Virus record (IMG/VR): IMGVR_UViG_2529293142_000033
From: a virus
Taxonomy: Duplodnaviria; Heunggongvirae; Uroviricota; Caudoviricetes
Direction: 5' to 3' (one strand)
DNA: 54,512 bases
This document shows positions 18,803-22,764 of this stretch, piece after piece. The position numbers and the translations under genes were made by a program. Each line of letters begins with the position of its first letter. The first letter of the stretch is position 1. Below the pieces are notes generated by a model. That model was not told the origin of the DNA. It was given only the letters and a program-made list of their open reading frames with translations, and searched no databases.

Positions 18803-18940
18803 GATGAGCGCTTGCTTTTGATAGTGTTAATTCATGAAGTTTAACTCCGCCAAAGTTATTTATTCAACCGCCCTTCAGGGCGGGCAGAAGCCTTCACATC
18901 GACACTGAGGTCGCCATCCGGCGGCCTTTTTTGTACCCGA

Positions 18941-19513
18941 ATGAAAACCTTCATCTGTACTGCCAGCGGTCCTTCGCTGTCTGCTGAGGACTGCCGGTTT
19001 ATTGCGGACTGCGGTCTGCCTGTCATCGCCGTTAACAGCACCTGGAAACGGGTTCCTTTTGCCACGCACGTGTTTGCCTGTGACTTCTCCTGGTGGAAGG
19101 CCTGCGTCCGTCACATCACCATTCCGGCTCAGCGCTGGACTGACAGCCGGGCTGCTCACAAGCGCTTCGGCATTAACTTCTTTCCTGAAGAGCGCGGCTC
19201 TCCGGTTAACTCCGGCAGACGGGCCATTGAGTTTGCGCTCTGGCTGGGCGCGGAGCGGGTGATTCTGCTGGGATATGACTGCTCCGTCTCACGCGGAACA
19301 CACTGGCACGGTGACCATCCGGAGGGGCTTAAGAACCCGACGGAGAACAGCACGCGTCTGTGGCGGAGCGAATTTGAAAAACACGCGCCCGTACTGAATG
19401 CACGGGCGGAAATCATCAACTGTTCGGTGGAAACAGCCCTGACCTGCTTTCCCCGGAGACGGCTCAGGGAGGTTCTTGATGCCACTGTCAAAAAGTCGCC
19501 CCGTGTATGTTAA
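18941..19513 (+). CDS. hypothetical protein (190 aa), translationally coupled to downstream glycosyltransferase-like gene
   Basis: ORF overlaps next gene by 38 nt; contains a GAERVILLGYDCS Rossmann-like strand; no confident family. Confidence 0.5.
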   Translation: MKTFICTASGPSLSAEDCRFIADCGLPVIAVNSTWKRVPFATHVFACDFSWWKACVRHITIPAQRWTDSRAAHKRFGINFFPEERGSPVNSGRRAIEFALWLGAERVILLGYDCSVSRGTHWHGDHPEGLKNPTENSTRLWRSEFEKHAPVLNARAEIINCSVETALTCFPRRRLREVLDATVKKSPRVC

Positions 19514-20411
19514 GGGAATGCACGGGATTGGCGACAACATTAACCAGCGAATGTTCATTGATGCGCTTTCGCGTGCCGGATACAGGGTGGAGCTACAGAC
19601 ACCCCTGCCGCAGCTTTACGCGGACCTGCCGGGGGTGACCTTCATTCCCTCGGAGACCACCCTGCGTACCCAGCAGAAAAATGAGCAGCGGGCCTACAGG
19701 AGCCTGCCGTACATCGCCCGCCCCTCAGCGGATGCACAGCGTATCCGCATCATGCATGACCGGCAGACGAAGGGGCGGGGGGAAAGCGTCGTTATGACAA
19801 TGACACGACAGTTCGGGATTGCGCCAGCTCCGGCGTCTCTTCCGTCGTTCAGGCGTTCATCACTGGTGGTGACCGACAAACCGGTGGCGGTGATTCGTCC
19901 GACAACGGTGCGTAATGAGTGGAAGACCACCTCCCGTGGACCGCTGAATGAGTACATCGACATGGCCTCGCGGATGCTCGCTGCGCGCGGCTATCACTGT
20001 GTGAGTGTGGCAGACCTTAACGAGTCTGATGCCTGCGAAAAGCGTCGCGAATGGATTGACGGCATGGTGCCGTTTGCGCATCAGCGATTTCATCACGGTG
20101 AGCTGTCACTTGAAGAGCTGCTGTCACTGACTGAGAGCGCGGCTGTGGTGGTCTGCGGGGACTGTCTGCTGCTGCACGCAGCGATAGCGTACGGTACCCC
20201 GCTGCTGGCCATTCTTGGTGGCATGGGCGGTGCCTGTCGTCCTGAGATTATTGCTGACCCGTCCCACTATGACCTGTCGAAGGTGTGCTTCATTAAGCCG
20301 GACAATTTCTGTCTGTGTCATGAGATGACGCACGACTGCGACAAGCACATCAGCGGAGTGGAAGGCAAAATCGCGGCGTTTCTGGATGGCCCCGTATTCA
20401 GGGGAGGCTGA
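19476..20411 (+). CDS. putative GT-B glycosyltransferase, family 9 (heptosyltransferase)-like
   Basis: N-terminal RPVYVKGMHGIGDNI and C-terminal VVVCGDCLLLHAAIAYGTPLLAILGG resemble the two signature segments of ADP-heptose:LPS heptosyltransferases (by eye). Confidence 0.5.
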   Translation: MMPLSKSRPVYVKGMHGIGDNINQRMFIDALSRAGYRVELQTPLPQLYADLPGVTFIPSETTLRTQQKNEQRAYRSLPYIARPSADAQRIRIMHDRQTKGRGESVVMTMTRQFGIAPAPASLPSFRRSSLVVTDKPVAVIRPTTVRNEWKTTSRGPLNEYIDMASRMLAARGYHCVSVADLNESDACEKRREWIDGMVPFAHQRFHHGELSLEELLSLTESAAVVVCGDCLLLHAAIAYGTPLLAILGGMGGACRPEIIADPSHYDLSKVCFIKPDNFCLCHEMTHDCDKHISGVEGKIAAFLDGPVFRGG

Positions 20412-20412
20412 T

Positions 20413-20733
20413 ATGCCTGACAAATCACCGGGATTCTGGATGTCCCTGCTGGCCTGGTTCCGGGCGGAGCCGGATGTGTCTGTTGCTGCTGCAACCGGGC
20501 TGATGGCCCTGCTGCGTTCCTGTCAGCAGGGAAAGTCACTGAGGGCGATGTTGCTGGACTCATGCATCTGCGCCTTTCTGGCGTTTTATCTGCGTGATGC
20601 GCTGGGGCTGTGCGGTGTGGACCAGGACTGGGCCATGATTCTGGGCGTGGTGCTGGGGTATCTGGGGACAGAGTTCATCCGCACCCTGCTGATTCGCTGG
20701 GCGGAGCGTCGCGCCGGGATTACCCGACACTGA
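20413..20733 (+). CDS. holin
   Basis: 106-aa protein with two to three TM segments and charged C-terminus, ggggagg RBS, directly upstream of endolysin. Confidence 0.7.
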   Translation: MPDKSPGFWMSLLAWFRAEPDVSVAAATGLMALLRSCQQGKSLRAMLLDSCICAFLAFYLRDALGLCGVDQDWAMILGVVLGYLGTEFIRTLLIRWAERRAGITRH

Positions 20734-22332: not shown

Positions 22333-22764
22333 ATGCCAAAAATCACATTAACGGTTGAAGACACCATCCGTATTGTACTGAACAACGATGATGTGCTTTC
22401 TCTGGTGAAGCAGAAATATCTGGAATCCACGCCGCCGGAATTTGACCTGAGCGAACTGGAGGCGCTGGTCAGTGACACGTCAGATGATGACGAACCAGAG
22501 GCTGACGAATCAGAGACTGATACGGACAGTCTGGCACTGTCTGAAACGACGGTCAGCGGAAAGGCGGGCGACACACTCACCGTTCAGGTCACCGCCGCAG
22601 GCGACAGCGACGTGCAGGTGAATACCTCAGACCTGAGCGTTGCGACAGCAGAATATGCGGACGGCGTGCTTACCATCACTCTGGTGGCAGAAGGCACGGC
22701 AACCATCGCGCTGACGAAAGGTGAGTCCTCTGCGGAGGTGGCAGTCACCGTGACGGCAGACTGA
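22333..22764 (+). CDS. acidic protein with probable bacterial Ig-like (Big_2-type) domain
   Basis: 143 aa; C-terminal 70 aa (TVSGKAGDTLTVQVTAAGDSDVQVNTSDLSVATAEYADGVLTITLVAEGTATIALT) looks like an Ig-like beta-sandwich. Confidence 0.55.
   Translation: MPKITLTVEDTIRIVLNNDDVLSLVKQKYLESTPPEFDLSELEALVSDTSDDDEPEADESETDTDSLALSETTVSGKAGDTLTVQVTAAGDSDVQVNTSDLSVATAEYADGVLTITLVAEGTATIALTKGESSAEVAVTVTAD

What the first reader, a model, noticed from the sequence alone, without database searches (positions are those of the whole stretch)
18941..20411. Phage-borne heptosyltransferase-like (GT9-like) enzyme with a coupled partner gene
The 311-aa protein has N-terminal RPVYVKGMHGIGDNI and C-terminal VVVCGDCLLLHAAIAYGTPLLAILGG, resembling the two conserved segments of GT-B family-9 heptosyltransferases. 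It is translationally coupled (38-nt overlap) to an upstream 190-aa protein of unknown family. A heptosyltransferase-like enzyme immediately before the holin is unusual and could modify LPS core or glycosylate a protein substrate; the motif call is by eye only.
Basis: inference. Interest (0 to 1): 0.7.

Follow-up and report, generated by a model that had tools for sequence, protein, structure and literature searches.

The report
Late-expressed phage two-enzyme glycosylation cassette
Two overlapping prophage genes just before the lysis genes encode a sialyltransferase/Maf-like enzyme and a heptosyltransferase-like enzyme; they are a cut-down copy of a widespread but unstudied phage sugar-adding cassette whose target, possibly the virus particle itself, is unknown.

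Summary
ORF1 (18941-19513, 190 aa) and ORF2 (19479-20411, 310 aa; 311 aa from TTG 19476) are real, overlap by 35-38 nt, and end 1 nt before a lambda-type holin.

ORF2 is a divergent GT9-like GT-B glycosyltransferase. It passes Pfam only marginally, but its AF2 model (pLDDT 95) matches WaaF, TibC and WaaC best. It also carries an invariant C-terminal CxCx4HxC metal motif.

The pair is a reduced form of a three-gene cassette: ST-like, GT9-like and a SAM methyltransferase. That cassette occurs in at least 556 viral contigs and about 900 protein clusters, including Pseudomonas phages D3 and PAJU2. It always sits in late or structural operons, and in-frame ST-GT, GT-MT and multi-GT fusions exist.

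Its position before the holin is the usual one, not an oddity.

Most likely the two enzymes build a short glycan late in infection, possibly from CMP-Kdo and ADP-heptose, on a cytoplasmic acceptor. Virion proteins are the best guess. Neither the target nor the donors are shown. No paper on the cassette was found.

The parts
14975..15727 (+). Q-like late antiterminator (context: it drives the transcript that carries the cassette)
   Evidence: PHROG 127 'anti-termination protein Q-like', E 2.4e-108; PGAP 'antitermination protein Q' in E. coli EC12
18907..18928 (+). Intrinsic-terminator-like hairpin plus T-run, 12 nt upstream of the ORF1 ATG. It leaves no room for a promoter, so ORF1 and ORF2 should be read only by Q-modified polymerase
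   Evidence: Terminator scan and sequence; near-identical hairpins at 17379-17400 and 18088-18109
18941..19513 (+). ORF1: 190-aa minimal Maf/DUF115/GT42 sialyltransferase-like enzyme, homologue of P1 PmgO
18962..18979 (+). ORF1 motif A8-S-G-P-S-L13 (invariant S9, G10, S12), which aligns with GNGPSL of Cst-II
   Evidence: Alignment A2; profile alignment to Cst-II
19301..19318 (+). ORF1 invariant H121-W-H-G-D-H126 motif (candidate catalytic or phosphate-binding histidines; role inferred)
   Evidence: Alignment A2
19467..19472 (+). Shine-Dalgarno GGGAGG for ORF2, inside the 3' end of ORF1
   Evidence: Sequence
19479..20411 (+). ORF2: 310-aa divergent GT9-like GT-B glycosyltransferase (311 aa if started at TTG 19476)
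   Evidence: Pfam PF01075, 23.4 bits; PHROG 6804, E 2.1e-71; AF2 pLDDT 95.2; Foldseek best matches WaaF, TibC, GT9 3tov and WaaC; PGAP 'glycosyltransferase family 9 protein'
19524..19535 (+). ORF2 invariant G17-x-G19-D20, the position of the catalytic Asp in GT9 enzymes (HepI D13, TibC D110); equivalence inferred from motif position
   Evidence: Alignment A1; TibC paper
20310..20339 (+). ORF2 invariant C279-x-C281-x4-H286-x-C288, a putative Zn/Fe-binding knuckle before the last helix
   Evidence: Invariant in 48 and 45 sequences; metal binding not tested
20413..20733 (+). Lambda-family holin directly downstream, 1 nt after the ORF2 stop (context)
   Evidence: Pfam PF05106, E 4.5e-20; PGAP start

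Best explanation
ORF1 and ORF2 form a two-enzyme glycosylation module that is transcribed only late, as the first genes of the Q-antiterminated late transcript and just ahead of the lysis genes.

ORF1 is a stripped-down Maf/sialyltransferase-type enzyme. Enzymes of this type use CMP-activated keto-sugar acids, and in E. coli the only generally available one is CMP-Kdo.

ORF2 is a divergent GT9-type inverting GT-B transferase with an N-terminal GxGD catalytic aspartate and a C-terminal Cys3His metal knuckle. ADP-heptose is its most obvious donor, but this is not established.

Together they build a short glycan on a cytoplasmic acceptor. In most relatives a third enzyme, a SAM O-methyltransferase missing here, caps that glycan.

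The most likely acceptor is a protein of the assembling virion. The precedents are Maf on flagellin, TibC on autotransporters, and the glycosyltransferase/methyltransferase genes of actinobacteriophages that glycosylate capsid and tail.

Shown: the folds, the conserved motifs, the gene coupling and fusions, the late or structural genomic context, and the wide distribution. Inferred: the donors, the order of action and the acceptor.
For: Folds:
- ORF2 model pLDDT 95.2. Its best PDB matches are WaaF (E 3.5e-10), the protein heptosyltransferase TibC (about 1e-9), GT9 3tov and WaaC.
- The ORF1 family profile aligns GPSL, N, SG..A..LG and L.G.D with Cst-II.

Maf precedent:
- Maf enzymes transfer Kdo from endogenous CMP-Kdo onto Ser/Thr in E. 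coli BL21, and they need an acidic residue, a Ser and an Asp.
- ORF1 has invariant D48, S91 and D113, with matching Ser-to-Asp spacing.

Functional unit:
- The order ST-GT-MT is found in about 76 of 83 loci.
- The ST stop lies within -11 to +48 nt of the GT's GxGD motif in all 78 loci measured.
- Fusion proteins exist: in-frame ST-GT (8 of 150 representatives), GT-MT, MT-GT, LicD-GT, and ST-GT-GT-GT polyproteins.

Late or virion context:
- A terminator lies 12 nt before ORF1 and the holin ribosome site lies inside ORF2.
- The cassette sits next to lysis genes in 69 of 83 loci.
- It lies between the major capsid gene (PF05065) and the gp6-like connector in 8 of 9 non-enteric prophages checked, and directly after the capsid gene in L087.
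- It lies among head-tail connector genes in PAJU2 and next to gp13-15 in a T4-like cyanophage.
- The P1 homologue PmgO lies in late operon LPpmgL.

Other points:
- Neither protein has a membrane-spanning segment.
- A glycosyltransferase plus methyltransferase is taken as a sign of virion glycosylation in actinobacteriophages.
- Depositors of PAJU2 labelled the ORF1 homologue 'structural protein'.
Against: - No acceptor has been identified. The carriers have unrelated virions: lambda gpE/gpD-type head plus contractile tail here, HK97-type capsids, T4-like phages and jumbo phages. A virion acceptor would therefore need loose recognition.
- ORF1 lacks the flanking domains through which Maf is thought to bind flagellin.
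- The GT9 sugar-binding Asp (D229 here) is not conserved across the family, and the NCBIfam heptosyltransferase models fall far below their cut-offs, so heptose is uncertain.
- GT+MT versions without ST occur in MAGs labelled Acidimicrobiia and Dehalococcoidia. If that binning is right, those hosts lack ADP-heptose and CMP-Kdo.
- One lytic phage carries the cassette between ribonucleotide-reductase genes rather than structural genes.
- P1 pmgO, pmgP and pmgQ are dispensable for plaque formation.
- The few differences between E. coli copies of ORF2 (5-8 synonymous against 7-9 non-synonymous) do not demonstrate purifying selection.
Confidence: 0.4

Rival explanations
1. Modification of the LPS inner core. 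ORF2 adds a heptose, and ORF1 a Kdo-like sugar, to Kdo2-lipid A/core at the inner face of the membrane. This alters a phage receptor, either to exclude other phages or to stop progeny from sticking to debris.
For: The nearest solved relatives of ORF2 include the LPS heptosyltransferases WaaF and WaaC. Both putative donors are LPS-core precursors. All named hosts are LPS-bearing Proteobacteria, plus one cyanobacterium. An LPS target common to all these hosts would explain how the cassette works in phages with unrelated virions.
Against: There is no independent promoter: a terminator abuts ORF1 and the genes are embedded in late operons or between capsid and connector genes, so expression in lysogens is not expected. 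LPS made in the last minutes before lysis cannot replace the existing outer leaflet. ORF1 resembles protein- or glycan-directed Maf and Cst enzymes, not the Kdo transferase WaaA. The family profile does not reach canonical GT9 in 1.84 billion representatives (924 hits only).
Confidence: 0.17
2. Glycosylation or hypermodification of phage DNA before packaging, as an anti-restriction function like T4 glucosyltransferases or the recently described Kdo- and heptose-adding phage GT-B enzymes.
For: Late expression fits modification before packaging. DNA is a target common to all carriers. Phage GT-B enzymes that add Kdo or heptose-like sugars to 5hmC are reported. ORF2 has many invariant arginines and a metal knuckle. 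One relative lies among nucleotide-metabolism genes, 7 kb from a 5-hmU DNA kinase-like gene.
Against: Known DNA glycosylation needs a pre-existing hydroxyl (5hmC, 5hmU or 5hoC) made by dedicated enzymes. None was found in the cassette or in the parts of the window searched, where the only DNA-modifying enzyme seen is a Dam methyltransferase; not every ORF of the window was scanned. The cassette methyltransferase is Methyltransf_23, closest (weakly) to the O-methyltransferase UbiG, not a DNA methyltransferase. ORF1's best structural match is a protein glycosyltransferase.
Confidence: 0.1
3. The acceptor is a host protein or a small molecule (for example flagellin or pilin, a defence or translation factor, or a soluble glycoconjugate), not the virion.
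For: A conserved host target would explain portability between unrelated phages. Maf acts on flagellin and TibC on a bacterial adhesin. The genes are non-essential in P1, which suits an accessory host-directed function.
Against: Host take-over and anti-defence functions are normally early, whereas this cassette is late and usually inside structural modules. There is no match in PADLOC. No candidate has been identified.
Confidence: 0.18
4. ORF1 is not a glycosyltransferase but an MptE/thiamin-pyrophosphokinase-like pyrophosphokinase that activates a hydroxyl group for a later transfer step.
Confidence: 0.1

Closest known systems
Phage P1 PmgO (P7 HdmB), 'putative morphogenetic function'
   Same: 40% identity over 98% of ORF1. 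It has the same DUF115 motifs, sits in a late operon (LPpmgL), and is accompanied by a second DUF115-like protein (PmgP) and a gene RefSeq calls a glycosyltransferase (PmgQ, which has no Pfam match).
   Different: P1 has no GT9-like partner (no P1 hit). The function of PmgO is unknown, and it is non-essential for lytic growth.
Maf flagellin nonulosonic-acid glycosyltransferases (DUF115/PF01973; PDB 5mu5)
   Different: ORF1 is only the 190-aa catalytic core; Maf is about 630 aa with flanking domains. The Pfam score is below the gathering cut-off (21.8 against 34.6). There is no flagellin context.
Campylobacter Cst-I/Cst-II sialyltransferases (CAZy GT42)
   Different: The sequence match is not significant (E 0.055). 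The lid region is absent, and the equivalent of the catalytic His188 is uncertain.
LPS heptosyltransferases WaaC/WaaF (CAZy GT9, PF01075)
   Same: GT-B fold and best Foldseek matches. The N-terminal GxGD and the C-terminal R-x-P, G-E-L and (in the window's clade) D...H motifs align.
   Different: Only the C-terminal half scores in Pfam, and only just above the cut-off. The equivalog models fail (31.5 bits against 134.6). The sugar-binding Asp is not conserved in the family. ORF2 has an extra Cys3His knuckle and a phage late-gene context.
TibC/Aah bacterial autotransporter heptosyltransferases (BAHT)
   Same: Second-best structural match. It is a cytoplasmic protein O-glycosyltransferase of GT9 type, with a metal finger inserted near the C-terminus that serves substrate recognition and oligomerisation.
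   Different: ORF2 has no N-terminal beta-barrel. TibC uses four cysteines (C339, C342, C358, C370) spread over 32 residues, whereas ORF2 has CxCx4HxC within 10 residues. The sequence match is insignificant (E 1.6). There is no autotransporter substrate nearby.
Virion glycosylation genes of actinobacteriophages (glycosyltransferase plus methyltransferase)
   Same: Phage-encoded glycosyltransferase(s) and an O-methyltransferase, held to glycosylate capsid and tail proteins (citing Freeman et al. 2023).
   Different: From my own knowledge, not tested here: the enzyme families and the hosts differ. The window copy lacks the methyltransferase. Virion glycosylation has not been demonstrated for any carrier of this cassette.

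Membership tests
CAZy GT9 / Pfam PF01075 (heptosyltransferases) | GT-B fold: two Rossmann-like domains | tested here: met
   AF2 pLDDT 95.2, pTM 0.93. The top Foldseek hits are all GT9 structures, E 3.5e-10 to 1e-6.
CAZy GT9 / Pfam PF01075 (heptosyltransferases) | Score above the family's curated sequence thresholds | tested here: inconclusive
   Pfam gives 23.4 bits against a cut-off of 22, for residues 134-248 only. NCBIfam heptosyltransferase II gives 31.5 against 134.6, and models I, III and RfaQ score far lower. The family profile recovers 924 clusters and no canonical GT9.
CAZy GT9 / Pfam PF01075 (heptosyltransferases) | N-terminal catalytic Asp (HepI D13, TibC D110) | tested here: inconclusive
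   D20 in GxGD is invariant and lies at the expected N-terminal position. No residue-level structural superposition was available.
CAZy GT9 / Pfam PF01075 (heptosyltransferases) | C-terminal D(S/T)G..H sugar-nucleotide motif | tested here: inconclusive
   The window protein has G-D229-C-L-L-L-H234, which aligns with N-D-S-G-L-M-H of WaaF. Elsewhere in the family the Asp is replaced by P, V or H and the His by L or P.
CAZy GT9 / Pfam PF01075 (heptosyltransferases) | Uses ADP-heptose as donor | not testable with these tools
   Needs an enzyme assay.
BAHT (TibC/Aah) | N-terminal beta-barrel domain and beta-hairpin thumb | tested here: not met
   The ORF2 secondary structure starts directly with the Rossmann strand at residue 10, and the protein is 311 aa against 406.
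BAHT (TibC/Aah) | Four-cysteine iron finger | tested here: not met
   ORF2 has a CxCx4HxC motif (Cys3His within 10 residues), not C-x2-C...C...C. It may be an analogous feature.
Maf / DUF115 (PF01973) | Fold of the central catalytic domain | tested here: met
Maf / DUF115 (PF01973) | Pfam gathering score | tested here: not met
   21.8 bits against 34.6 for the window protein, although many homologues carry a precomputed PF01973 hit.
Maf / DUF115 (PF01973) | Flanking N- and C-terminal domains, and a flagellin substrate | tested here: not met
   ORF1 is 190 aa with no extra domains, and there are no flagellar genes nearby.
Maf / DUF115 (PF01973) | Catalytic acidic residue, Ser and Asp shown to be needed in Maf | tested here: inconclusive
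   D48, S91 and D113 are invariant, with a Ser-to-Asp spacing of 22 against 23 in CbMaf. The equivalence rests on motif position only.
CAZy GT42 (Cst-I/II) | Significant sequence similarity and a catalytic His | tested here: inconclusive
ST-like / GT9-like / methyltransferase phage cassette (this work; PHROGs 4603, 6804, 6564) | Adjacent same-strand ST-like and GT9-like genes with overlapping or abutting ends | tested here: met
   Window: 35-38 nt overlap. The pattern holds in all 78 loci measured.
ST-like / GT9-like / methyltransferase phage cassette (this work; PHROGs 4603, 6804, 6564) | Third gene: Methyltransf_23 SAM methyltransferase | tested here: not met
   tblastn with three cassette methyltransferases finds nothing in the window. 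It is also absent from the 97%-identical loci L004 and L005.

The most novel reading that the evidence does not exclude
Phages of Gram-negative bacteria, including classics such as D3 and relatives of P1, carry a widespread late-gene system that uses the host's own LPS-core precursors (CMP-Kdo, ADP-heptose) to O-glycosylate their virions, in most versions with a methyl cap. To my knowledge this would be the first virion-glycosylation system described outside actinobacteriophages and giant viruses. Its initiating enzyme would be a new metal-knuckle GT9-like protein glycosyltransferase.
Probability: 0.25. Interest if true: 0.8.

Novelty: new variant of a known kind. Interest (0 to 1): 0.55.

Why it matters
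Surface sugars on virions affect antibody recognition, clearance, stability and adhesion, all of which bear on phage therapy against E. coli, Klebsiella, Enterobacter and Pseudomonas. If this cassette decorates virions, it has gone unnoticed in hundreds of phage genomes.

Whatever the target, the work delimits two uncharacterised enzyme families:
- a minimal 190-aa Maf/sialyltransferase core;
- a GT9-like enzyme with a Cys3His knuckle, comprising about 900 clusters at 50% identity.

It also gives a functional lead for the long-unassigned P1 genes pmgO and pmgP. The question is readily testable in laboratory phages (D3, PAJU2, P1). For this window alone the finding is modest: a reduced, rare copy that standard pipelines already label 'GT9 family protein'.

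Tried and rejected
- **Ser-rich 'SSASPA' motif as a candidate acceptor.** It appeared in small ORFs between the capsid gene and the ST gene in several prophages. I rejected it: it is the +1-frame reading of the DNA that encodes the ST motif CIASGPSL, and it also turns up as 12-19-codon out-of-frame ORFs at the same spot in other loci.
- **Near-identical DNA.** There is none in the phage collection. In E. coli genomes no 'empty site' comparison was possible, because the whole GC-rich lysis and late region occurs only in the same 3 genomes.
- **PADLOC** gave no defence-system match.
- **Literature.** The D3 genome paper, the PAJU2 paper and Freeman et al. 2023 are not held.
- **Methyltransferase elsewhere in the window:** not found.
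- **DNA hydroxymethylation or TET-type genes** among ten genes of the window's early region and left arm: not found, only Dam.
- **First methyltransferase HMM.** It was contaminated by a scripting slip, which produced false 'mt' labels on GT genes. It was rebuilt.
- **Synonymous against non-synonymous counts** between E. coli copies: too few differences to be informative.
Full report
**1. What is in the sequence**

The two ORFs exist as described: 18941-19513 (190 aa, ATG) and 19476-20411 (311 aa from TTG).

The better start for ORF2 is ATG 19479. It lies 6 nt after GGGAGG and is the start PGAP uses in E. coli EC12. That gives 310 aa and a 35-nt overlap, against 38 nt from the TTG.

ORF2 stops at 20411. 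The lambda-family holin most probably starts at 20413, and its ribosome-binding site lies inside the end of ORF2.

Twelve nucleotides upstream of the ORF1 ATG there is a hairpin followed by a T-run (18907-18928). It is one of three near-identical terminator-like elements between the Q antiterminator gene (14975-15727) and the lysis genes. No space is left for a promoter of the cassette's own. ORF1 and ORF2 should therefore be transcribed only by Q-modified RNA polymerase, that is, late (inference from the layout).

The window is a mosaic prophage:
- an E. coli-like early region (GC 0.45-0.49);
- a GC-rich (about 0.6) late region that begins at ORF1;
- a lambda-type head (portal, protease, gpD-like decoration protein, gpE-like capsid protein) and a contractile tail.

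The two-gene region is present in only 3 of 5426 complete E. coli genomes. The ORF1 protein, however, occurs with identical sequence on 233 public contigs.

**2. ORF2**

By sequence the protein is only marginally a GT9 member:
- Pfam PF01075 gives 23.4 bits against a cut-off of 22, covering residues 134-248 only.
- The NCBIfam heptosyltransferase models fail by a wide margin.
- PHROGs files it in an unannotated family, 6804.

The structure is clearer. With 48 homologues the AlphaFold2 model is very confident (pLDDT 95.2). Its best solved neighbours are WaaF, the protein heptosyltransferase TibC, a Veillonella GT9 and WaaC.

Invariant residues in the family are G17, G19, D20, R25, R64, T65, R141, P142, R146, E148, R154, G208, G248 and G249, plus a C-terminal C279-x-C281-x4-H286-x-C288. 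D20 sits where GT9 enzymes have their catalytic aspartate (HepI D13, TibC D110), but I could not superpose residues. The Cys3His cluster looks like a metal knuckle. TibC also carries a metal finger near its C-terminus, used for substrate binding and oligomerisation, but with a different motif.

However, its Asp and His are not conserved in the rest of the family, so heptose specificity cannot be assumed.

A profile of the family finds 924 clusters (50% identity) in 1.84 billion representatives and does not reach canonical GT9. It is a distinct, sizeable family.

**3. ORF1**

ORF1 is not of unknown family.
- PHROG 4603 ('alpha-2,3-sialyltransferase') matches at E 8.7e-53.
- Pfam MptE-like/DUF115 matches below threshold.
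- The family profile's best PDB sequence match is Cst-II, aligning GPSL, N, SG..A..LG and L.G.D.

Invariant residues are S9, G10, S12, N32, D48, W52, G111, D113, H121, W122, H123, H126, N160 and F170. S91, the Ser of the NSG motif, is conserved in at least 90% of the sequences. Maf enzymes need an acidic residue, a Ser and an Asp, and they can transfer Kdo from the host's CMP-Kdo onto Ser/Thr in E. coli. D48, S91 and D113 fit that pattern by position.

ORF1 is also 40% identical, over 98% of its length, to phage P1 PmgO (P7 HdmB). In P1, pmgO lies in the late operon LPpmgL. Next to it is pmgP, which I find to be a second, divergent DUF115-like protein, and downstream is pmgQ, which RefSeq calls a glycosyltransferase but which has no Pfam match. 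All three are dispensable for plaque formation and have no assigned function.

**4. The pair is part of a conserved cassette**

tblastn finds ORF2 relatives in Pseudomonas phages D3, PAJU2 and PMG1, in the jumbo phages Eowyn and KpGz_1, in Enterobacter phage Mulvp2 and in a T4-like Synechococcus phage. IMG/VR holds at least 556 contigs with a relative.

In about 76 of 83 loci the order is ST-like, GT9-like, then a roughly 200-aa Methyltransf_23 SAM methyltransferase. The window and its 97%-identical relatives L004 and L005 lack the methyltransferase, and no copy exists elsewhere in the window.

The ST stop lies within -11 to +48 nt of the GT's GxGD motif in all 78 loci measured. Tight juxtaposition or overlap is therefore the rule.

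Fusion proteins tie the enzymes together:
- ST-GT in frame (8 of the top 150 representatives);
- GT-MT and MT-GT;
- LicD-GT;
- a canonical GT9 fused to a family-GT domain;
- polyproteins with one ST and three GT9-like domains.

Variants without ST keep GT+MT, sometimes with a second type of GT9-like enzyme. These are the cyanophage, L056/L061, L070, L087, L088 and the Gemmatimonadota, Acidimicrobiia and Dehalococcoidia MAG contigs. GT plus MT is thus the core and the second transferase is exchangeable. I take this to mean (inference) that the GT9-like enzyme probably initiates on the acceptor and the ST-like enzyme extends.

**5. Genomic context**

The position before the holin is not unusual. 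The cassette is followed within five genes by lysis genes in 38 of 83 loci (30 of these with a recognised Q gene upstream). It is preceded by lysis genes in 31 loci, of which 19 have terminase downstream.

Outside lambdoid phages it sits inside virion modules:
- between head-closure and tail-completion genes in PAJU2;
- after gp13-gp15 in the cyanophage;
- next to baseplate genes in L026;
- directly downstream of the HK97-type major capsid gene and upstream of the gp6-like connector in 8 of 9 prophages checked, from Cellvibrio, Methylophaga, Alcanivorax, Bordetella, Burkholderiaceae, Phenylobacterium, a betaproteobacterium and a Gemmatimonadota MAG, and also in L087.

One lytic phage has it between ribonucleotide-reductase genes.

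Named hosts are almost all Proteobacteria. Neither protein has a membrane-spanning segment.

**6. Mechanism**

The best-supported reading is a late-expressed, cytoplasmic, two-step glycosylation: a GT9-like inverting transferase plus a Maf/sialyltransferase-like transferase, capped by O-methylation in most relatives.

CMP-Kdo and ADP-heptose are attractive donors. They are made by essentially all the proteobacterial hosts, and the ST gene is absent from the non-proteobacterial versions. This is inference only.

The acceptor is unknown. I favour virion proteins (about 0.4) for three reasons:
- the constant late or structural context;
- the protein-directed nearest structural relatives (Maf, TibC);
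- the actinobacteriophage precedent of glycosyltransferase plus methyltransferase.

A weak lead is the 'structural protein' label that the PAJU2 depositors gave the ORF1 homologue. The same label in Eowyn may simply be copied from it.

Against this view, the carriers have unrelated capsids and tails, so recognition would have to be loose.

The rivals are as follows:
- **LPS core modification.** It is disfavoured by late-only expression.
- **DNA glycosylation.** It is disfavoured because no route to a hydroxylated base was found, and known systems require one.
- **A host protein or small-molecule target.**
- **ORF1 as a pyrophosphokinase.**

**7. Novelty and verdict**

Annotation pipelines already call ORF2 'glycosyltransferase family 9 protein' and the ORF1 family 'alpha-2,3-sialyltransferase'. 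The fold calls are therefore not new.

What I could not find described, in any of the ten full-text searches I was allowed, is:
- the cassette as a unit;
- its breadth;
- its fusions;
- its invariant metal knuckle;
- its link to P1 PmgO and PmgP.

I class it as a new variant of a known kind: phage-encoded glycosylation modules. The window copy is a rare, methyltransferase-less version. Interest is moderate (0.55): it is ordinary as an annotation, but it opens a testable question about virion glycosylation in phages of Gram-negative bacteria.

Noticed in passing
window 17379-17400, 18088-18109, 18907-18928: Three near-identical terminator-like hairpins (GAGGTC...GGCCTTTTTT) each close a small gene module between Q and the lysis genes. 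They look like moron boundaries, or terminators that Q-modified polymerase reads through.
   Followed up: partly
window 16114-16423: A cluster of four tRNA genes (CAT anticodon called Met by ARAGORN and Ile by PGAP, then Arg-TCT, Thr-TGT, Gly-TCC) lies just downstream of Q, as in Stx phages.
   Followed up: no
window about 19000 (boundary), 19000-45000: GC content jumps from 0.45-0.49 to about 0.6 exactly where ORF1 begins. The GC-rich lysis region next to the cassette occurs in only 3 of 5426 complete E. coli genomes, which suggests a mosaic with a late module from a phage of a host with higher GC content.
   Followed up: partly
window 22333-22764: A 143-aa Ig-like (PHROG 215, 'structural protein with Ig domain') protein with an acidic Ser/Thr-rich linker lies between the lysis genes and terminase. 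It could be a decoration protein. No link to the cassette was established.
   Followed up: no
L119 (phage P1) 5944-8502: P1 PmgO is a 40%-identical homologue of ORF1. PmgP is a second, divergent DUF115-like protein. ppp and PmgQ (which RefSeq calls a glycosyltransferase but which has no Pfam match) follow in the same late operon. All are non-essential in CRISPRi and deletion screens.
   Followed up: partly
L085 (PAJU2 AP009624.1) 1781-2350; Eowyn LR881104.1 2327-2860: Depositors labelled the ORF1 homologues 'structural protein'. For PAJU2 this may rest on virion protein analysis in a paper I could not read. The Eowyn label may be copied from PAJU2.
   Followed up: partly
protein P0305 (1032 aa, metagenomic): A canonical GT9 heptosyltransferase interrupted by an intein with a LAGLIDADG domain is fused to a domain of the ORF2 family.
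   Followed up: partly
L007-L010, L013, L020, L024, just downstream of the cassette: A ParB-like gene and a 288-aa gene of unknown family repeatedly follow the cassette, ahead of the terminase genes.
   Followed up: no
L102, L106, L110 (Alcanivorax, Bordetella, betaproteobacterial prophages): The longest ST-GT ORF lacks the N-terminal ASGPSL segment. In L102 and L110 that segment was seen encoded in another frame just upstream. Possible explanations are frameshifted ST genes, assembly errors or recoding.
   Followed up: no
window 11596-12282: A Dam-type N6-adenine DNA methyltransferase lies in the early region. It is the only DNA-modifying enzyme found in the window.
   Followed up: partly
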